Both the position numbers and the translations under genes were made by a program. This document shows, piece after piece, positions 1,441 through 47,815 of a stretch of DNA of 64,000 nucleotides. The number at the start of each line of letters is the position of its first letter. Within the stretch, counting starts at the first letter, position 1. Source of the DNA: the human T2T-CHM13v2.0 reference genome, Homo sapiens; assembly GCF_009914755.1 (NCBI RefSeq), contig NC_060929.1; one strand, given 5' to 3'. The notes below the pieces were generated by a model, which was given only the letters and a program-made list of their open reading frames with translations, did not search any database and was not told where the DNA came from.

Positions 1441-4400
1441 CCAGGCTAGTGATCATTATTTAAGACAAGATTGCAGGTCTGGAAGTCAGGGGCCTATAAG
1501 CCAGACTTGCCTGTAGAACTCATTGTGAGATGCCTACTGAGTTCTCTCCTTTCTTCATATCTGTCTCAGAGCTCTTCTTTTTTAAAATGAAGATGTGATA
1601 TGGCTGATTTCCAGGCTCTTTTCTGGCAATAAACTTCTGAGACCCTGTGCTGTAATAGGTTTGATCTCTGAAGGGATTTTGAGAAAGTTGTGAATAGATC
1701 ATGGATGAAATCTTATATCCAGGACAAGGACAATGCCATCATTATGTTCCTGGTCCTTGTAATAATCTTGATTTTTCTCAGGCTTTGGTAAGCTGATTGT
1801 CTCTATGGGAAGCCCTCTGTTAAACCTCTGTTACCACGACATTTCTCTTCCAGAAGTTAAAGTTAAATAGCGCTGAAACTTGAGGTCTTCCCTGGAAGTG
1901 TAAAGCAACATTCCTGAGAATTAAGGGGTATCTGAGAACTCTTAAGGCTCATGTCTAAGAGAATGACAAAACTAGGAAGTTAAAAATGAAATAAAGATAG
2001 AATGAAGCTCTAACTTGGTTTATTTATTTTGTATAAATAGGGTCTTATAGACAGGTCAAAATCTTCTGTTCACGTACAACAATGAACCATCTAAATTACA
2101 TAAAGCTTAATTCTAAAAACGTATAAACTAGTTATGGGATATAGATAAAATCGTATGAGTCTTGAGCTTTCATTTTATCAGCAATAAGGCAGGGGTAACA
2201 AGATTCTGTCTAGGCTACCTCATAGCGTTGATACAACAAATAAGACATGCTTTCTGAGCACACAAAGAATGTGAGAAAATCTCATTAGTGCTATTTATTA
2301 TAGGTTAGTAGAAACTTGGGAATCATTACACAATGACAATGGCATGTGACTCTATTACATACATATCAAAAACCAAGGGAAAAACTCATAAAGTCTCATT
2401 ATGGTTCATTGTTTAAGAAATTGACAAAAAAAGAATTTAAGGAAAAGCAGCAGTTTTAAATTCTAATACAGTGTTCGCTGAGAACAAAATTGTTCTCTTT
2501 TGTTCTTAAGTTGAAGCATCCAGTCCTTTTCAATGACCCAAAAATGATGAATGCAATAATAAAAATATGTTGTGTGTGGTTTCTAGTATTGAGCGATCCC
2601 AAACAAACTAAATAACAAAATTAATTACCCAGAGATATATTGAGTAACAAAATAAACTATCATCCACGAGTACCCCAGTCTGAAATTGAATTTTAGTCTT
2701 GAATAATAAATTACTTCCAAAGCCAAGTACTATAGGTACTATAGGGATTTGTGTTTAAATTTGACATCCGCCTCATTAGGGTTGAAATTGGCAAAATAGC
2801 CAAAGTGCTGGTAGCTGGGAGCATATTCATATTAATTATGATTATTTTGGCAAATCTTTTTACCAGGAAGCAAATAAATAAAATCAAGGCCAAACAATAT
2901 AGCTAATAGAGATAAACAGGTTCATTTTCTGGAGGTAAATATTCTATTCAGTTGCTGAAATACCCTGGCTCTTGCTATTCTTTTCTTTGGATCCAAGGCT
3001 ATGCTTTCCACTTGCATAACTGTCATAGTGAAGAACAAGGCTCTTTCAAACCTCCGTATGGCTTATTCCTAAAGTCATTATCCAGTAGCAGCATTATGAC
3101 TCATCTATACAAAATGACCTTGTAAAAGTCAGCTAAAGGGAGGTGTAGAACCCTTATTTGAATTGATAAAAATATCAAGAAGTCCATGTGTAACTCAAAG
3201 CAACCTTGATTTTCTGCTGTCTGTCAAAACTAATTTTACTGTCAGGTATTTTTTTTCTTAAATAGTGACACTGGCTAAAATTAAAAATAATAATATAAAC
3301 AGAAAAATATCTTCAAATATCAATTCAAGGGGAATTACCATTTTCTATGACCAACCAGAACTCCCAAATATTCTGAAATATATTTCTTTATTTAATTTTT
3401 AGTGAAAGAGTAATTTGTATAAGGGCACTCATATAAAAGACTTAGTGAAAAAAATAATTTACAGGGAATTCTTGGGTTCTTCTTACATCGTCTTATATTT
3501 TTAAGTCTATGTCTGCCACTAACTAGCTGTGGATTTTGATAAGTCTCTTAATCCGGCATCATTATTTCTGGGGACCTTTCTAGCCCTAAATCCATGATTC
3601 TACAATGAGAACAGCATCTAGAATTATGACCAATTTCAGTTAGTAGCAAGGTTGGGAGAGGGAAGAAAAGCATTTCTAATGAACCATAAATAACTTTTAA
3701 AAGCTTAAAACATCCTATTCCTAAGCACTCAGGTTAATTATGAGATTTTATTAGAGAAGCTTGTTAAAAATAATATGCAAACCTTGCAATATTTTAGTAT
3801 TGCAAACTTTGCCATGTTATGGCTCATTGGGTTCTGTTTTATGCCATATGATAAAAATGGACATCCATTACAGATAAGTAAACACTTTAGCTAGAAAATA
3901 CAGATGATCTCGGTAATGTGGCCAGTGATCCAGAATAACTGGGCACATTTGCTTCTTGTGATTACCTTTGCAAACGAGGCAGATTCTTGCCTAATGCTGC
4001 AGTTTGAATATCAGTCCTGAAGACAGATACAGTGAAATGAACGCATGTAAACACAGCTTGGGGATGTAACTTCATGTATAAATTACAAAAACATTAAATT
4101 CTTACATGAAGTTGGAAATGGTGGTGTTAAGAAACAAGAAGCAGCTCTCTGTGGGGTTCACTCTGTGTGAGTCCCCAGGCTCCCTCTCTTCCAACTACTC
4201 TGAATCATGGCCGCTGCTCCAGCGGGGAGTTCTGTCTGATGGCACCACTGTCTTGTGTCCTAAGAACCATGGTTGCCTTAGACCCCCCAAGGATCTGGGA
4301 CCTAGTTTCAACTTGACCAGACTCCTGAGACTGGGGCCCTTTCTGCCACTTTGAGATGCAGATGAGGCCCAACTTTACTACGGATATAGAATTTGGCTTC

Positions 4401-4479
4401 TCCATCAAAGGGGCCAGATTACTCAACTCCATGAGGTAAACTGGTGTCAATTGCCATGACACCATTTTCCTGCCCAGAG

Positions 4480-4590
4480 TCTATCAAGTCCTTGGGGCAG
4501 GAATAGCGTTTAGTCTATTTCCCTGTTCCCCATCACTTAGCACAGTGCTTTTCACATAGAGATCAAACAATGTTTGTTTGCTAGATGAAC
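4480..4590 (+). mobile_element. L2 3' end fragment
   Basis: ccccatcacttagcacagtgc...aatgtttgttt...gatgaa resembles the L2 terminus. Confidence 0.55.
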
Positions 4591-4775
4591 ACAGTGTACC
4601 ATTTTTTCTCTCCCACATTTAGACTAAGACGATGTGACCAGATCAAAACTACCGCATTTAAAGTGATCTTACTGCTGATCCCTGTGGTCTCTCAACCTGA
4701 TGATGTGAAATTCAATACAACTTGGAGAAAAGCAGCAAGGCTAGTGCTTCTGGTGTCTTCAGCGTTTTTGGTGTC

Positions 4776-5000
4776 CTAGGCATGCGTTGTCAGTGTTATC
4801 TTAAATTCCCAGTTGTCCGTTTGTTACAGTGAGATAATATTATCTGTAAATACATTGAACTGGGCTCAAGTAACCTGCACTGTGTCCCAATATGCAGAGA
4901 ACAAAGGAATCGACTGCATCAGTGCCGCCAACCCCTGAAGAGGAGCTGGATTTCCCTTGCCTCTTATCTGAGGTATGATGCTGAGCAGGGAAGGCTGAGA
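4776..5000 (+). repeat. Left arm of long inverted repeat
   Basis: 4831-4959 is the reverse complement of 6199-6327 with 3 mismatches in 129 bp; flanks align at about 80%. Confidence 0.97.
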
Positions 5001-5239
5001 AGGGCAAAGCTCACCTGAAGTGTCCATTAATTTCCTGGCTAGAACTGTGACAGACTTCATCTTTGAGGGAATTAATCTGCATGACTGAGTGAGGACATTT
5101 TAATGATTTTTAAATGCCCTGATTTTTCTTCCCTTTTCATTACATTCTCACTCCTTGATAAAGAGCAAACACTTATCCCCCACCCTCCGTTTTTACCATA
5201 TTCCGAAAACCCTTTCACTTTTCCTCATGGAGGGCATTT

Positions 5240-5304
5240 CTGACCCCTGCTGACATGTGGTCTTGGAGTGGTGGCTCCCCACCACTCCAACCAGGCAGCA
5301 TCAG
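5240..5304. other. Hairpin with a perfect 12-bp stem inside the inverted-repeat spacer
   Basis: ttggagtggtgg (5263-5274), loop ctcc, ccaccactccaa (5279-5290); extendable by tgg/cca, tgctg/cagca and ctga/tcag pairs. Confidence 0.85.
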
Positions 5305-5479
5305 GTGAGAGCACCCATTGTTTCTGCTGGTTACCCTCATGCGAGATTTTTGTTTGCTTCCTTTCTCTCCCCAGATACTTCTGTTACTACTTCACTACTG
5401 TGGGGAACTTCACAAAAATGCATCCCTCAGCACCCTGGGCTCTGTGTCTGAACCACTTCACATGCCTTCTGTACTGCAT

Positions 5480-5990
5480 CCCAGCACTCCAGTATTCCTG
5501 AGCTGAAATCTCAGACCTCGTAATTACCAATCACTGTGCTTTTGACACCCACCCCTGCCACTCACTACCAGCTTCTCTTATTTTTCAACTTATTCTGGTT
5601 CACCAACGAAAACGATTCTTCAAGCCCACTGGGGCCTCAATCCATGTATTCATTATTGGCTGCTCTCGTGAGGTCAGATCTCTTTTGTTTTTACTCATCT
5701 TAGATGTCATAGACTATCATGTGCCCCTAGCTTTCTTTGTTGTATTTGCCTTTAAAGGTTTCAACCTTGCTCAGATTTAACTCTTCAACTGCTCCCCACT
5801 TATTCCTGTGTGGATGAATGTGGCTAGAGAAAAATGCACAAACATGATGACAAATTTATGATCACAAATCCCAAGTAAGCCTCAACACCACTAGGCCATT
5901 CTACTCTATGGCTTTATTCAGTTCCCAATGCCTCATTCCACCCCAAATTTTAAGAAGATAATTTCATCTCTTTTCAAAATTTCCAAAGTA
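5480..5990 (+). mobile_element. L2 internal fragment
   Basis: gtggctagagaaaaatgcacaaacatg...tttatgatcacaaatcccaagtaagccctcaac matches the recalled L2 ORF region. Confidence 0.6.
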
Positions 5991-6047
5991 TTTCCTCTTA
6001 TTCTTTTTAAGGCAAACTCATCCATATTAACAGTAGACAAAACATGA

Positions 6048-6172
6048 GTTCAAAAAAAAATTATTAAGAATTTCAAGACTGTGATAGCAGGACATTACGC
6101 TAAGGGTGAGCCCCATCTGAACACAGGGCCTTGTGTGACTGCACTGGCTACAGGCCTGCTCAGCTGGCCCTG
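6048..6172 (-). mobile_element. MER53 (hAT) fragment, one end missing
   Basis: Minus strand reads cagggccagc...gtgcagtcacacaaggccctg...gtcttgaaattcttaataattttt...gaac, as in the recalled MER53 consensus. Confidence 0.75.
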
Positions 6173-6376
6173 CTCAGGATCACACCTTAGACAGGAGACA
6201 AGGGAAATCCAGCTCCTCTTCAGGGGTTGGCAGCACTGATGCAGTCGATTCCTTTGTTTTCTGCATATTGGGACACAGTGCAGGTTACTTGAGCCCAGTT
6301 CAATGTATTTGCAGATAATATTATCTCGTTGCAACAACAATTGGGAATTTAAGAATAACACTGATATTCATGCCTT
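6158..6376 (-). repeat. Right arm of long inverted repeat
   Basis: Reverse complement of about 4776-5000; a further 11-bp match gacaccaaaaa (6409-6419) pairs with tttttggtgtc (4765-4775). Confidence 0.97.
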
Positions 6377-8990
6377 AGAAGGCGGAGGAAGCAGAAAATG
6401 GTAGAGTTGACACCAAAAATATTATGAACTAATAAGATCTCATAAGCTGCTAATCAAAATTTCAAAAATAATAAAAGGACTACTGAAAATATGAATTTAT
6501 TAGTATAATATAAATCGTGTTGTTAATCATAAACTTAGTGTATTTTGTGACTTGATAAATTAAGTACTAATCATAACTATAATGGAATTCATGCTCATTG
6601 TTTTCATTAATGAGTATGTGATCTCTGTTTCATTAAATATCTATGTTATATGATGATGTAGAATTACAGACGACACAGGGACAAAGGCAGAGCATATTCT
6701 AGAAAATGAAATTCTTATGTGTCAACTAATTTAGTCACTAGCCTCTATAATGTAACCTTGTGCTTAATACATATGAAGCATTAAAGAGTACTTGGACATA
6801 TGTCTGAATGAGCTATTCGTTTTCTAAGAAATTTCCCTCGGAAACGTGTCTACAATGAAGTAGCCAATTTGTTAATACTTGAACACCCTGATTGATGGGG
6901 AATTCACTTCCTCTGAAGACATTGCTAAAATGTTGTCACACACACACAGGACACACAGAGAAAGGGAGAAAAAATAATATTCTGAGTGCCTATGCAGTGT
7001 AGAATATACATACCCATGTTTTCCCCCAAAAAGATGTTGAAAACTTAGATCAAATAAATCAGCATCTCCTCTACAGTCTTATTTAGTGGAAACAACATGT
7101 TTTAAAAGCACGAGAATAGAACCAAGAAGGCAGAAAACATGGGCAATGGGAAAAAACAGAAGTGCATTTTACATAAATAAACAAATAATCCCTGAGCAGT
7201 GCACATATTTGTGGTTTTATTAATTTTTCAATTTTAAGGTGTGGAAATCTGGTTTTACGCAATAAGCTCTTTTGTTAACCGCAGAGCTGCTCCCTCAGGA
7301 TGCCTGGGATAACTTCCATAGGGCAGATGCTGCTGACGTGCTATTTCCAAAGGGTTCCTGGCATAGGACTGTGAAAGGTTTCCTGGAGCCTCCCTAGAAG
7401 ATCAGTTGTTTATCTGCAGGGAAGCCCTGAAAGAGCCTGAGAGTGTGTGCTTCTCAGGTGTAGTCAACGTGTGAAGAGCCCCAGGCACCCACGCAAGAAC
7501 CATCCCTTGGGCCATTTATTGAACTGTAGAAGGCAACTATAGCCAAGTGGGCTGGGGGGAGAGCTCTTTTGGGGAGTGTTGCTTTTGAACTCAGAATATC
7601 GTCTTTAACAAATGCAGTTCTTTTCAAATATCAGCCATAGTTTCATTCTCCATACAGCATTATTTGAAAATCCATCCCTTTCATCCAAGGATTTATCCTA
7701 ATTATAAAATAATCTCTGTTTTTATGATGCCTTCTAGTCAGTATGCCAGTGCCCATAGGTGGGGACAATCTAATGAGGCTTCTCTGCAGCTCAGAGCCTG
7801 GGTGACTATTGTATCCCATAGATGAGGAAACTAACTGAATAAAGCTCGTGACTCTGAGCCAGGAATAGGACTTTTGTGTTAGCAGCTTTGCTGCTCATAC
7901 TGTGCAATCCTAAATCCTGGACAATACTGAGCTACTAGCACAATGAAAATAATTTACATGAGAATAGATACCATGCCTTCCTCTCAAGATATGCTTATCC
8001 GTTTAATTTTCACCCACATATAGGTGACACTGATTTGTATTTCTAAAGCTGTAGTTTCTCTTAAGCGAAAATGTATCCTGTCCAATAAATTGAGTACTTT
8101 TCCAATGCAGTTATTTTTTAATATTGGGAAATGTTACTTTAATAATGATGTTTATTTTTGGTTTGTGTTTTTTCCCTTACAACAGCCAGCAAAGGATTAA
8201 ATTCAGTTATCATAAATATGCAAATCAAAGTGGCAATGATCAAAATTTGGGATTTTTTTCCCCTTTGTTTCTCTGCCTTTCCTGGAAGGTGGAATTATTT
8301 TGCTAGGTTTATATATTTTCCTCAAATTCTTTTTGAAGAGTCAACATATATGTCCTTTTTGCATCTTTTGATGAGGGTGGACAGAAGGGGACAATAAATG
8401 AAAACAAACCTATTCATGACTTATTAATGGATTAGGTTTTCCTAACTGGAGTTCACACAGAGCTTCTACCATGGCTCTGCTTTAAAAAAGTGAAGCTCTT
8501 TCCCTAATAAATATTCTGTTCTTTCCTGTCTTCTCCCACCAAGTGAGAACTAAGATAGCTGCAATTCACTTAAAGGTAACCAGGAAGTTTGCACAAGGCA
8601 CCTAGTAGCAGTATTCTTACTTCAAGAGACATGTTTTTCAAATGTAGGGTTGGTTGAAGTAAGAAAAGTAGAATCAAATTCCAGGTGTCAATTTCGTCAT
8701 AAGATTCTGTTTGACTTTTGTGCAAACTGATTTACATTAAGCAATCAATCCATAAGAGAACAAAAATTGCATTTGCAAGCAAAAGAATATATTCACAGTT
8801 GAATAAATGATTGAATTGTTAGAATGGTATTTCATACCTCAAAAGAATGAAGGGCAGTTCCCTTTAGGTTGAAGGAAACATCTATGGTGTAACCGAGGTC
8901 CTTAATACCTTTCAGCTTTCCCATTTATCAGAACTGTGACCTTAGGCCAGTTACCTTAGCCTTACACATCTCATCTAGAAAATGTGATTC

Positions 8991-9357
8991 TGCTATGGAC
9001 TGAATGTGTCAATCCCAAATTCATATGTTGAAATCCTAGCCCCTAATATGATGGTATTAGGAGGTGGGGCCTCTGGGAGGTGATTAGGTTATGAGGGTAG
9101 AGCTCTCATGACTGGGATTAGTTCTCTTATAATGAGATACAAGACAGCTTGCTTTTTCTTTCTCTCTGCTTCCCACTATGAGAGGATACAAGGAGAAGAT
9201 GGTGATCTGTGAACCAGAAGGCAGACCCTCACAACACCACATCTGTCAGCACCTTCATCTTAGCCTTCCCAGGCTCCAGAACTATGTGAAATAGATTTCT
9301 GTTGTTTAAGCCACCCAGTTTATGGTATAACTGTTATAAGAAGCCTGAATTAAGGCA
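8991..9357 (+). mobile_element. MLT1A-type MaLR solo LTR inserted in a MIR
   Basis: Starts tgctatggactgaatgtgt, ends aattaaggca; TSD gattc/gagtc. Confidence 0.85.
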
Positions 9358-11524: not shown

Positions 11525-11883
11525 TGCTATGGCCTGAATATTTATGTTCTCTCAAAATTCATAAGTTGAAGTGATAGCTTTCAGGGTAATGGTAATAGGA
11601 GGTGGGGCCTTTGGGGGGTGATTTGGTCATAATGGCAGAATGGGATGAATGCCCTTTAAAAAAGGCCCCAGGGAGCTCCTTCTTCTCTCCCATCCCCTGT
11701 GTGAAGACACAGCAAGAAGGCACAGTCTGTGAGCCAGAAAGTGGGCCCTCACCAGACACTGAATTTACCAGCACCTTGATCTTAGATTTTCCTGCCTCCA
11801 GAACTGTGAAAAATATACTTATGTTGTTGATAAGCCACCCAGTTTTGGTATTTTTTTTATATCAGCCAAAATAGACTAAGACA
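11525..11883 (+). mobile_element. MLT1A-type MaLR solo LTR
   Basis: Starts tgctatggcctgaat, ends atagactaagaca; TSD ctatt/ctctt. Confidence 0.85.
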
Positions 11884-13799: not shown

Positions 13800-14160
<361 letters not shown>

Positions 14161-14476
14161 TTAGTAAAGCAGGAAAGGAGAAAAAAGCAAAGAAAATAAA
14201 TGATGCAAAATAAGGTTAAAATAATACAGTAATTGTATTGAACATGAATGAATTGAATCTACCAGTTAAAGGACAATAATTGTAAAATTAGGTTTTGATA
14301 AATTTGGACATATATCACTTATAAAATACACACCTAAATGATAAAAACCAAAAGTAGATAAAGAAATAAAAGACATGCCAGACAATTACTAAGGAATACT
14401 AATATCAACCAAAGTATTGCCAGAGATAGAGATTGATTATTGCAAGAAAAAAATGGACAAGTCTTCCTAAAAATGA

Positions 14477-14775
<299 letters not shown>

Positions 14776-17892: not shown

Positions 17893-18195
<303 letters not shown>

Positions 18196-30967: not shown

Positions 30968-31618
30968 GAGGGACTTTCTTTTCTAGGAACACGGGATAGA
31001 TGTGTGTTTTCTTATCTTTCTAAGTACAACTGAAAAGTGTAGCTATAATACATATAATAATCATATGAAGACTTTGAAAGCTGGACATGAGAAGGCAGAC
31101 TGGCTAGAGACCTTGGAACTTGAGAAACAACACAGTAATGAGGTCTTGGGTGTTCTCTTTGCCTCATGTATCCCAGACTTGGAGCTGAAGAAGCCAGCAA
31201 CCTGGAGACAATAATGAGGGCAGACCACTACAAATAAATAAAAAACAGAAAAGAAATTATGATTTCTCTAGGCAAAAGACTCAGGAAGAAGTAGCCTAGG
31301 AAAAGTGAACATTTTTAGACAATAACCTCTCCAATTCAGCCAAACACCACAGAAAAAAACTGTGAGTGCATTCTGATCCAAGCCTGCAGAGGCTGAGTAG
31401 TGAGCCTAGATTTCCAACCTAATGAAGCTGTAACAAGGTGCTCTTGCATCCACCAGGATCCCATCAGGGAATGCCAAGTAGGGATGCTGGTTAGTAATAG
31501 GACCTTTCTTGCCCACTGTGTCAATAGAGACCATGTGGGGGGCAGAAACTTCTATGTCTAATTGGCAGTAACAAGAAGTTCTCTCCACCTTGGGTGTTAA
31601 TGAAAGCCAAGTGAGAAT
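30968..31618 (+). mobile_element. Ancient L1M (MC/MD-type) 5' UTR, left part
   Basis: gagggactttc...ctaagtacaactgaaaa...gaaggcagactggctagagacc matches recalled L1MC/MD 5' ends. Confidence 0.65.
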
Positions 31619-31848
31619 GTTTTCTTTTCTTTTTTTTTTTATTATTATACTTTAAGTTTTAGGGTACATGTGCACAATGTGCAGGTTAGTTACATATGTA
31701 TACATGTTACATGCTGGTGCGCTGCACCCACTAACTGGTCATCTAGCATTAGGTATATCTCCCAATGCTATCCCTCCCCCCTCCCCCCACCCCACAACAG
31801 TCCCCAGAGTGTGATGTTCCCCTTCCTGTGTCCATGTGTTCCCATTGT

Positions 31849-32395
31849 TCAATTCCCACCTATGAGTGAGAATATGTGGTGTTTGGTTTTTTGTTCTTGC
31901 CATAGTTTACTGAGAATGATGATTTCCAATTGCATCCATGTCCCTACAAAGGACATGAACTCATCATTTTTTATGGCTGCATAGTATTCCATGGCGGATA
32001 TGTGCCACATTTTCTTAATCCAGTCTATCATTGTTGGACATTTGGGTTGGTTCCAAGTCTTTGCTATTGTGAATAGTGCCACAATAAACATACGTGTGCA
32101 TGTGTCTTTATAGCAGCATGATTTATAGTCCTTTGGGTATATACCCAGTAATGGGATGGCTGGGTCAAATGGTATTTCTAGTTCTAGATCCCTGAGGAAT
32201 CGCCACACTGACTTCCACAATGGTTGAACTAGTTTACAGTCCCACCAACAGTGTAAAAGTGGTCCTATTTCCCCACATCCTCTCCAGCACCTGTTGTTTC
32301 CTGACTTTTTAATGATTGCCATTCTAACTGGTGTGAGATGATATCTCATTGTGGTTTTGATTTGCATTTCTCTGATGGCCAGTGACGGTGAGCAT
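31849..32395 (-). pseudogene. L1 ORF2p C-terminal Cys-rich region
   Basis: ...[18 protein letters not shown]...IFSLIGGN* native terminus. Confidence 0.95.
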
Positions 32396-32504
32396 TTTTC
32401 ATGTGTTTTTTGGCTGCATAAATGTCTTCTTTTGAGAAGTGTCTGTTCATGTCCTTCGCCCACTTTTTGATGGGGTTGTTTTTTTCTTGTAAATTTGTTT
32501 GAGT

Positions 32505-34855
<2,351 letters not shown>

Positions 34856-39227: not shown

Positions 39228-40105
<878 letters not shown>

Positions 40106-47649: not shown

Positions 47650-47815
47650 TCTTAGTTTATTTTATTGAGACAGGATCTTGCTCTGTTTTACAGGCTGAAG
47701 TGCAGTCACCCAAACATAGCTCACTGCAGCCTTGATCACTTTGGTTCAAGTGATCCTCCTGTCTCAGCTTCCCGAGTAGCTGAGACCACAGACATAGGTC
47801 ATGATACCAGGCTAA
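47650..47815 (-). mobile_element. FRAM or AluJ right monomer
   Basis: gagacaggatcttgctctg...catagctcactgcagccttga...gatcctcct J-type diagnostics. Confidence 0.85.

What the first reader, a model, noticed from the sequence alone, without database searches (positions are those of the whole stretch)
4765..6419. Unique-sequence inverted repeat with a near-identical core and old flanks: candidate invertible segment or long-range RNA duplex
Seen: 4831-4959 and 6199-6327 are reverse complements with only 3 mismatches in 129 bp. The inner flank (4960-4990) has 6 mismatches in 31 bp. The outer flank has several substitutions and indels, with a detached 11-bp match at 4765-4775/6409-6419. The core matches no repeat I recognise. 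Established: inverted repeats mediate NAHR inversions and are homogenised by gene conversion. Inference: the duplication is old (about 80% flank identity) but the core is being kept identical. Either the ~1.2-kb spacer flips recurrently or undergoes conversion, or selection maintains a ~130-200-bp RNA duplex (ADAR substrate, looping out the spacer).
Basis: partly seen in the sequence, partly recalled or inferred. Interest (0 to 1): 0.8.

Follow-up and report, generated by a model that had tools for sequence, protein, structure and literature searches.

The report
Old inverted duplication with homogenised core
Two copies of a unique 240-base stretch face each other across 1.15 kb in a human gene desert, and their middle 129 bases have stayed almost identical while the rest drifted apart, most likely because the copies keep correcting each other.

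Summary
Arms 4765-5003 and 6155-6419 are reverse complements. The core (4831-4959 / 6199-6327) has 3 mismatches in 129 bases. The flanks have 17 mismatches in 91 aligned bases, plus indels. This contrast is not chance (scan p about 1e-4).

The arms are not a repeat family. In the whole T2T genome each arm matches only itself and its partner.

New here: the last about 136 bases of the spacer plus the first 18 bases of the right arm (6037-6172) are the 3' end of an old hAT-type DNA transposon. The left arm carries a mirrored copy of just those 18 terminal bases and shares four derived changes with the right arm. So the repeat is a local inverted duplication made after the transposon landed, roughly half as old as it.

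The core differs about nine times less than the flanks. The best reading (0.55) is neutral arm-to-arm gene conversion that now reaches only the core. Selection on a conserved element or an RNA duplex, and ongoing flipping of the spacer, are not excluded, but nothing found here supports them.

No orthologues or population haplotypes were available, so the mechanism is inferred. This is an ordinary kind of feature, but a tidy example of it.

The parts
4765..4830 (+). Left arm, outer diverged flank. It holds an exact 11-base match at 4765-4775, then 4778-4830.
   Evidence: 7 mismatches in 47 aligned columns plus 7 gap columns. An indel of about 31 bases separates the 11-mer from the rest of the arm on the right side.
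4831..4959 (+). Left arm, near-identical core
   Evidence: 3 mismatches in 129 against the reverse complement of 6199-6327. It matches only itself and its partner in the whole genome.
4960..5003 (+). Left arm, inner diverged flank. 4986-5003 is a mirrored copy of the last 18 bases of the hAT-type element.
   Evidence: 10 mismatches in 44. The 18-base three-way comparison shows 4 derived states shared with the right arm. The family profile finds no further transposon sequence in 4940-5240.
5004..6036 (.). Unique spacer, pyrimidine-rich on the + strand
   Evidence: 4960-5500 and 5500-6036 hit only themselves in the genome. nhmmer finds no weak relatives in 150,765 bases. GC skew is -0.19 to -0.38 for 200-base windows starting 5000-5900.
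6037..6172 (+). 5'-truncated 3' end of a hAT-type DNA transposon. It spans the spacer/right-arm junction at 6154|6155.
   Evidence: At least 40 dispersed copies at 71-87% identity. Family profiles hit 6055-6180 (E 3.9e-31) and 6037-6179 (E 5.3e-34). The element ends at 6172 and has K2P 0.23 to the family majority consensus.
6155..6198 (-). Right arm, inner diverged flank. 6155-6172 is the transposon terminus.
6199..6327 (-). Right arm, near-identical core
6328..6419 (-). Right arm, outer diverged flank
4832..4845 (.). Perfect 14-base palindrome at the outer edge of the core. Its twin lies at 6313-6326.
   Evidence: These are 2 of only 7 perfect 14-base palindromes in the 64-kb window.

Best explanation
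This is a local inverted duplication of ordinary unique DNA. An old hAT-type DNA transposon was already in place, with its 3' end at 6172. A stretch running from 18 bases inside that end outward into the flank (now 6155-6419) was then copied in reverse orientation about 1.15 kb away (now 4765-5003). The likely route was either replicative template switching or a small inversion made by staggered breaks that were filled in. The two arms then drifted apart. Arm-to-arm (non-allelic, intrachromosomal) gene conversion kept overwriting one arm with the other. As mismatches and indels built up at the edges, conversion tracts stopped reaching them. Only the central 129 bases are still homogenised. The last event fell within roughly the last tenth of the repeat's lifetime. 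On this reading the structure is a neutral by-product with no function of its own. What is shown: the repeat, its uniqueness in the genome, the transposon landmark, the order of events and the non-random identity profile. What is inferred: gene conversion as the cause, its recurrence, and neutrality.
For: The repeat and its identity profile are real and non-random (scan p = 1.2e-4). Arm, core, spacer and outer flanks are single-copy in the 3.1-Gb assembly apart from each other. There were no weak relatives at E < 0.1 in 150,765 bases of human DNA. So the arms are paralogues of each other, not members of a family. 6037-6172 is the end of a dispersed element. Full copies of it show 8-base target duplications: 10 copies had both ends, the mean was 4.4 of 8 matches against 2.07 in shifted controls, and 5 of 10 had at least 5 of 8. 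Both arms carry the last 18 bases of this element, with 4 derived states shared, 0 right-only and 3 left-only. The left side has no more of the element. Hence the duplication came after the insertion, and the right arm keeps the ancestral junction. The bases just outside the two element ends are mirror images, not a direct target duplication, so this is not a whole transposon with long terminal repeats. Distances: flanks K2P 0.221, or 0.11 per arm; transposon fragment 0.232 to its consensus; core 0.024. Arm-to-arm conversion in inverted repeats is established for human Y palindromes (PMC3723533, abstract seen in the search listing). It was also inferred for C. elegans inverted repeats (PMC1803023, abstract). 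Inverted duplications of unique sequence, median 321 bp, arise with inversions by staggered breaks (PMC1885836, passages).
Against: No orthologous or population sequence was available, so conservation of both copies by selection gives the same one-genome picture. The arms are short, and the longest perfect runs are only 51, 33 and 26 bases. By recalled estimates of minimal homology for mammalian recombination this is marginal, so it is not obvious that conversion could still operate. GC content of the core (0.45-0.46) is not raised over the flanks (0.33-0.59), so there is no sign of GC-biased conversion. The inner boundary of the core (4959/4960) has no indel that would explain why tracts stop there. 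The sample is small: 3 differences in the core.
Confidence: 0.55

Rival explanations
1. Both core copies are held by purifying selection. The 129 bases would be a functional element needed in two inverted copies, for example a protein-binding module, or the two strands of a long RNA hairpin (about 130-200 bp of duplex) that is edited or processed.
For: The sharp step from 2% to about 20% divergence at both edges of the core is what a constrained element inside neutral DNA looks like. Each core begins with a perfect 14-base palindrome holding two inverted GATA-type motifs; reading the motif this way is from recall. As RNA the arms would pair with predicted -374 kcal/mol, against -125 +/- 7 for 30 shuffled partners. 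This follows by construction from the repeat.
Against: The hub table shows no annotated transcript or RefSeq functional element here. There is no Rfam match at E <= 1 in 3500-7700. None of 8 open frames matched Pfam at E <= 1. Transition differences are unbiased between G.U (6) and A.C (5) in a + strand transcript, so no strand is favoured for pairing. The core contains nothing found elsewhere in the genome. Conservation in other species was not testable.
Confidence: 0.15
2. The 1.2-1.4 kb spacer still flips by crossover between the arms (a recurrent or polymorphic NAHR inversion), and the homogenised core is the footprint of those exchanges.
For: The geometry is right: inverted arms with a 97.7% identical core flank a short spacer. 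Conversion and crossover are outcomes of the same recombination intermediates; this is established knowledge. Rare inversions accompany conversion in a Y palindrome (PMC3723533, title and abstract seen in the listing).
Against: The homology is very short, with perfect runs of at most 51 bases. No row with these T2T coordinates was found in the readable supplementary tables of PMC11794170 (2 files), PMC12350169 (2 of 3 files searched, one of them cut when stored) and PMC13755911 (7 files). This is a weak negative, because full call sets are not in those files, some may use GRCh38 coordinates, and PMC13419748 could not be read. The transposon fragment is intact across the spacer/right-arm junction; that fits this orientation being ancestral there, but does not exclude flipping.
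Confidence: 0.12
3. A single late event, either one conversion tract or one polymerase template switch, replaced the core of one arm with the other's. There has been no ongoing process before or since.
For: One tract of about 130 bases is within the usual range for human non-allelic conversion (recalled). Template switching between imperfect inverted repeats homogenises arms (PMC8604942, abstract seen in listings). The core is a single block with sharp edges.
Against: If the arms had drifted freely until then, they would have been about 80% alike at the time. Recombination between such diverged short sequences is strongly suppressed (recalled, inference). One genome cannot separate one event from many.
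Confidence: 0.15
4. Chance, or two independent insertions of one interspersed repeat, or an assembly artefact.
For: The innermost 18 bases of each arm do come from a dispersed repeat.
Against: The arm alignment has E = 1.8e-73 in a whole-genome search, with only 2 candidates found. The 18 bases share 4 derived states between the arms. The rest of the arms has no other copy. The structure is 1.65 kb in a T2T assembly, well within a single read length (inference).
Confidence: 0.02

Closest known systems
Human Y-chromosome palindromes P1-P8 (arm-to-arm gene conversion; PMC3723533 and PMC8600007, abstracts seen in the search listing)
   Same: Inverted arms around a unique spacer, with arm identity kept above what age predicts by intrachromosomal conversion and occasional spacer inversion.
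   Different: Those arms are kilobases to megabases long, more than 99.9% identical over their whole length, and carry genes. Here the arms are about 240 bases, only the central 129 bases are homogenised, the locus is autosomal in a gene desert, and conversion is inferred rather than observed.
Actively maintained inverted repeats in Caenorhabditis (PMC1803023, abstract read)
   Same: The inverted-repeat structure is more conserved than the sequence, which was taken as evidence of an active homogenising mechanism.
   Different: Those repeats involve gene pairs and whole intergenic regions and were shown by three-species comparison. Here there is one genome and no genes.
Inverted duplications at inversion breakpoints made by staggered breaks (Drosophila; PMC1885836, passages read)
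   Same: Inverted duplicates of formerly unique sequence, a few hundred bases long (median 321 bp), flank a segment and are often present at one breakpoint only. This is a plausible origin of these arms.
   Different: Those flank large chromosomal inversions. Here the segment would be only about 1.15 kb, and no outgroup was available to show that it was ever inverted.
Template switching between short imperfect inverted repeats (yeast; PMC8604942, abstract seen in listings)
   Same: It homogenises the arms and can invert the spacer.
   Different: It is described for short arms and short spacers that cause multinucleotide mutations. Arms of 129 or more bases that lie 1.15 kb apart are well outside that scale.
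hAT-superfamily non-autonomous DNA transposons of mammals. A resemblance to the MER20 group is recalled only and was not tested, since no Dfam or RepeatMasker library is on hand.
   Same: For 6037-6172 only: short terminal inverted repeats starting CAGG, 8-base target duplications in full copies, and about 20% divergence from the family consensus.
   Different: The inverted repeat as a whole is not such an element. Its arms lie mostly outside the transposon, have no other genomic copies, and are flanked by mirror-image rather than direct sequence.

Membership tests
Interspersed repeat family (both arms as independent copies) | Many dispersed copies in the same genome | tested here: not met
   Arm 4778-5003 and core 4831-4959 each gave 2 first-look candidates and 2 matches, namely the two arms. 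nhmmer with either arm against 150,765 bases of human DNA gave no other hit at E < 0.1. Limit: copies below about 70% identity could be missed.
DNA transposon with long terminal inverted repeats (whole 4765-6419 as one element) | Direct target-site duplication outside the termini, and other copies of the element | tested here: not met
   There are no other copies. The sequence outside the hAT-like ends is mirror-image, not direct.
hAT-superfamily transposon (for fragment 6037-6172 only) | 8-base target-site duplications and short terminal inverted repeats in family members | tested here: met
   10 copies had both ends. Mean TSD match was 4.4 of 8 against 2.07 in controls, and 5 of 10 had at least 5 of 8. 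Two of the low scorers look shifted by one base. The termini CAGG...CCTG are visible in the alignment. No transposase was looked for.
Inverted repeat under concerted evolution by gene conversion | Arm identity higher than the age of the duplication predicts | tested here: met
   Core K2P is 0.024 against flanks 0.221, with scan p = 1.2e-4.
Inverted repeat under concerted evolution by gene conversion | Arms cluster within species rather than by position across species | not testable with these tools
   No other primate or mammalian genome can be reached. The genome search says the assembly has no relatives here.
NAHR-mediated polymorphic or recurrent inversion | Both spacer orientations observed among haplotypes or species | not testable with these tools
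   Only one haplotype is held. There was no row at these coordinates in the readable supplements of three papers, which is a weak negative.
Inversion by staggered breaks with breakpoint duplication | Inverted duplicates of unique sequence flanking the segment | tested here: met
Inversion by staggered breaks with breakpoint duplication | An outgroup with a single copy and the opposite orientation | not testable with these tools
   No outgroup sequence is available.
Known structured RNA / microRNA hairpin (Rfam) | A match to a curated covariance model | tested here: not met
   0 matches at E <= 1 in 3500-7700 on both strands.
Edited long double-stranded RNA (ADAR substrate) | Both arms in one transcript, and clustered A-to-I sites | not testable with these tools
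   There is no annotated gene within the repeat (hub table). No RNA or editing data are on hand. Duplex stability is met by construction.

The most novel reading that the evidence does not exclude
The 129-base core is not a passive conversion island. It would be a selected two-copy module in one of two forms. Either it forms the stem of a primate-conserved long hairpin RNA that is processed or edited. Or it is a pair of oppositely oriented protein-binding sites, each opening with a 14-base palindrome, that bracket a 1.2-kb segment still able to flip in human populations.
Probability: 0.1. Interest if true: 0.6.

Novelty: new member of a known kind. Interest (0 to 1): 0.3.

Why it matters
If the main reading is right, the locus is a small, clean natural example of how gene conversion between short inverted paralogues decays from the edges inward. 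It comes with a built-in clock: the transposon fragment dates the order of events. That is useful for calibrating how little homology still supports non-allelic conversion in primates, but it is not surprising. It would matter more if primate comparisons showed that the core is conserved in its own right, or if pangenomes showed both spacer orientations. The arms would then be among the shortest known to drive inversion in humans.

Tried and rejected
1. Whole transposon with long terminal repeats. I rejected this because the dispersed family ends at 6172, inside the arm, the arms have no other copies, and the sequence outside the ends is mirrored rather than directly repeated.

2. A hAT element inserted at the centre of an older palindrome. 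I rejected this because there is no direct 8-base duplication, and the left arm's 18 bases share derived changes with the right arm's transposon end.

3. Deeper arm homology inward of 5003/6155. A permissive alignment suggested this, but the family profiles find nothing in 4940-5240: the best short-profile hit is a 16-base A/T run at E 0.54, and the long profile gives none.

4. The upstream about 600 bases shared by 9 'long-form' copies. This does not match the window upstream of 6037, so the window copy is a truncated end.

5. Arms or spacer as very old MIR/L2-type repeats. A vague resemblance recalled by eye was not borne out by nhmmer on 150,765 bases. No repeat library was available for a proper test.

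6. Coding potential. 8 open frames of 52-92 residues gave no Pfam match at E <= 1. All three frames on both strands are open across the core, so the frames carry no signal.

7. Rfam: nothing.

9. Published catalogues. There was no row at the T2T coordinates in the readable supplements of PMC11794170, PMC12350169 and PMC13755911. PMC13419748's files could not be read. Literature searches turned up mechanism papers but nothing on this locus. No search can be made by coordinate in main texts, so I cannot say the locus is absent from print.

10. GC-biased conversion signature: not seen.
Full report
**Observation.** The inverted repeat is there as described. The repeat finder gives ungapped arms 4821-5003 and 6155-6337, 183 nt, 91% complementary, 1151 nt apart. 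A gapped local alignment carries it out to 4778/6375. The detached 11-mer at 4765-4775 / 6409-6419 is an exact reverse-complement match. The full arms are therefore about 4765-5003 and 6155-6419, with an indel of about 31 bases near the outer end.

- The core 4831-4959 / 6199-6327 has 3 differences in 129, at 4847, 4899 and 4926. All are transitions and one is at a CpG.
- The inner flank 4960-5003 has 10 differences in 44.
- The outer flank 4778-4830 has 7 differences in 47 aligned columns, plus 7 gap columns.

Placing the 16 mismatches of the ungapped block at random gives a 129-base window with 3 or fewer mismatches in 0.012% of 200,000 trials. Fisher's test of core against the rest gives p = 1.1e-5. 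Within the 64-kb window this is the only inverted repeat of 80 nt or more outside NCBI-masked repeats, and it is the most similar of the five found (hub table).

**Is it a repeat family?** No. The assembly holding the window (3.1 Gb, 24 contigs) could be searched. The arm 4778-5003 and the core 4831-4959 each produced two first-look candidates and two matches, namely the arms themselves. The outer neighbours 4150-4790 and 6360-7000, and the spacer pieces 4960-5500 and 5500-6036, are also single-copy. That search skips very common words and scores only the best candidates. I therefore also ran single-sequence nhmmer with both arms and both spacer halves against 150,765 bases of human DNA (the window plus 28 fetched loci). 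Nothing but the sequences themselves scored below E = 0.1. Very old repeats below about 70% identity cannot be excluded without a repeat library.

**The landmark.** The last part of the spacer is different. 6037-6154 hits at least 40 dispersed places at 73-87% identity. With the query extended into the arm, some of these matches run on to about 6183.

- Aligning 28 of these copies shows a family with termini CAGG...CCTG. There is a short form of about 178 bases, and 9 longer copies share only its 3' part.
- Ten copies retained both ends. Their flanking 8-mers match at 4.4 of 8 on average, against 2.07 for shifted controls, and 5 of 10 match at 5 or more of 8. This is the hallmark of the hAT superfamily (established knowledge).
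- A resemblance to the MER20 group is my recollection only and was not tested.
- Profiles built from these copies, with the window left out, hit the window at 6055-6180 (E 3.9e-31) and 6037-6179 (E 5.3e-34) and nowhere else near the repeat.
- Pairwise alignment to the family majority consensus puts the element's last base at 6172, with K2P 0.232. The median over the 28 copies is 0.20. These copies were chosen for likeness to the window, so the distances may be underestimates.

The transposon end therefore lies 18 bases inside the right arm, which begins at 6155.

**Order of events.** The left arm's innermost 18 bases (4986-5003), read in reverse complement, align with that transposon terminus. 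Of the 18 positions, 4 carry a state shared by both arms but different from the family consensus. None is derived in the right arm alone, 3 are derived in the left arm alone, and 1 differs in all three. The family profiles find no further transposon sequence in 4940-5240. The more permissive alignment is therefore not trusted inward of 5003. The 8 bases outside the two 'ends' are mirror images of each other (7 of 8 as reverse complements, read by eye), not a direct target duplication.

Together this rules out three readings: two independent insertions, a complete element with long terminal repeats, and an insertion into the centre of an older palindrome. What remains is an inverted duplication whose inner breakpoint fell 18 bases inside a transposon that was already there and already somewhat mutated. 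The transposon is continuous across 6154|6155, so the spacer/right-arm junction is ancestral and the left arm/spacer junction (5003|5004) is new.

Two origins fit:
- a templated inverted insertion by replicative template switching;
- a micro-inversion of the 1.15-kb spacer by staggered breaks with fill-in. In Drosophila this mechanism leaves inverted duplicates of unique sequence (median 321 bp, often at one breakpoint only) at 17 of 29 inversions (PMC1885836, passages read).

An outgroup is needed to tell them apart.

**Ages (inference).** The flanks differ by K2P 0.221, or about 0.11 per arm. The transposon fragment stands at 0.232 from its consensus. The core differs by 0.024, or 0.012 per arm. 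The duplication is therefore roughly half as old as the transposon insertion, and the core was last identical within about one ninth of the duplication's age. With only three differences in the core, the second figure is uncertain by several-fold either way. I give no calendar dates, because they would rest on recalled substitution rates.

**Why is the core so alike?** Three processes give this picture in a single genome.

(a) Gene conversion between the arms. This is established for inverted repeats from Y palindromes (PMC3723533, abstract in listing) to nematode repeats (PMC1803023, abstract). If the arms had drifted freely, a late single event would have had to act on sequences only about 80% alike, which mismatch surveillance disfavours (recalled). 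I therefore prefer repeated conversion from the start. Its reach would have shrunk as the edges collected mismatches and, on the outer side, indels.

(b) Selection on both copies. Nothing supports it:
- no Rfam match;
- no Pfam match for 8 open frames;
- frames open in every phase;
- no annotated transcript or functional element (hub table);
- no bias of transition differences towards G.U pairs on either strand, with 6 G.U against 5 A.C.

The predicted duplex energy of -374 kcal/mol, against -125 for shuffled partners, merely restates the repeat. Cross-species conservation, the decisive test, was out of reach.

(c) Ongoing flipping of the spacer. The longest perfect runs shared by the arms are 51, 33 and 26 bases, which is short for crossover (recalled). 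I found no entry at these T2T coordinates in the readable supplementary tables of three papers (a fourth was unreadable). This is only a weak negative, since full call sets are not in those files.

**Against my reading.** The core's GC content is no higher than the flanks'. No indel explains the sharp inner edge at 4959/4960. The homology is at the low end of what is thought to support recombination.

**Verdict.** Gene conversion is the most likely cause (0.55), either recurrent as in the main reading or as a single event as in a listed rival. The RNA-duplex and invertible-segment ideas remain untested possibilities with no positive evidence. This is a new instance of a known kind of structure, and the interest is modest.

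Noticed in passing
window 6037-6172: The 5'-truncated 3' end of a hAT-type non-autonomous DNA transposon family with at least 40 dispersed genomic copies. The family has a short form of about 178 bp and longer copies that share only the 3' part. The family name was not determined; a resemblance to MER20 is recalled only.
   Followed up: yes
window 4832-4845 and 6313-6326: Each core starts with the same perfect 14-base palindrome, AGATAATATTATCT. It contains two inverted GATA-type motifs (motif reading recalled). These are 2 of only 7 perfect 14-base palindromes in the window. It sits exactly at the outer edge of the homogenised core.
   Followed up: partly
window 5000-6100: The spacer is strongly pyrimidine-rich on the + strand, with GC skew from -0.19 to -0.38 for 200-base windows starting 5000-5900. 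It is nonetheless single-copy in the genome. The origin is unknown.
   Followed up: partly
window 4826-5000: The first 11 arm differences, from 4826 to 4975, are all transitions. Four of the last five (4980-5000, at and next to the transposon terminus) are transversions. The numbers are small and no explanation was found.
   Followed up: no
window 4818-4979: The left arm is bracketed by splice-site-like strings on the + strand: a pyrimidine run plus AG ending at 4829, and GAG|GTATGA at 4971-4979. This was read by eye and not scored. No gene is annotated here.
   Followed up: no
window 9017-9101 and 11555-11639: Two direct copies of an 85-base stretch at 76% identity. The first lies in an NCBI-masked stretch, so these are presumably two members of a dispersed repeat.
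   Followed up: no
window 13821-14749 and 18038-18178; 39709-39819 and 47684-47794: These are the other inverted repeats of 106-168 nt at 75-82% identity. All lie in NCBI-masked stretches, so they are presumably pairs of common interspersed repeats.
   Followed up: no
window 32107-32389: The upstream part of the 'long-form' profile, built from the flanks of 9 loci, hits this spot inside the large masked block 31612-34150 (E 3.3e-11). The upstream region of those loci therefore probably holds another common repeat rather than transposon sequence.
   Followed up: no
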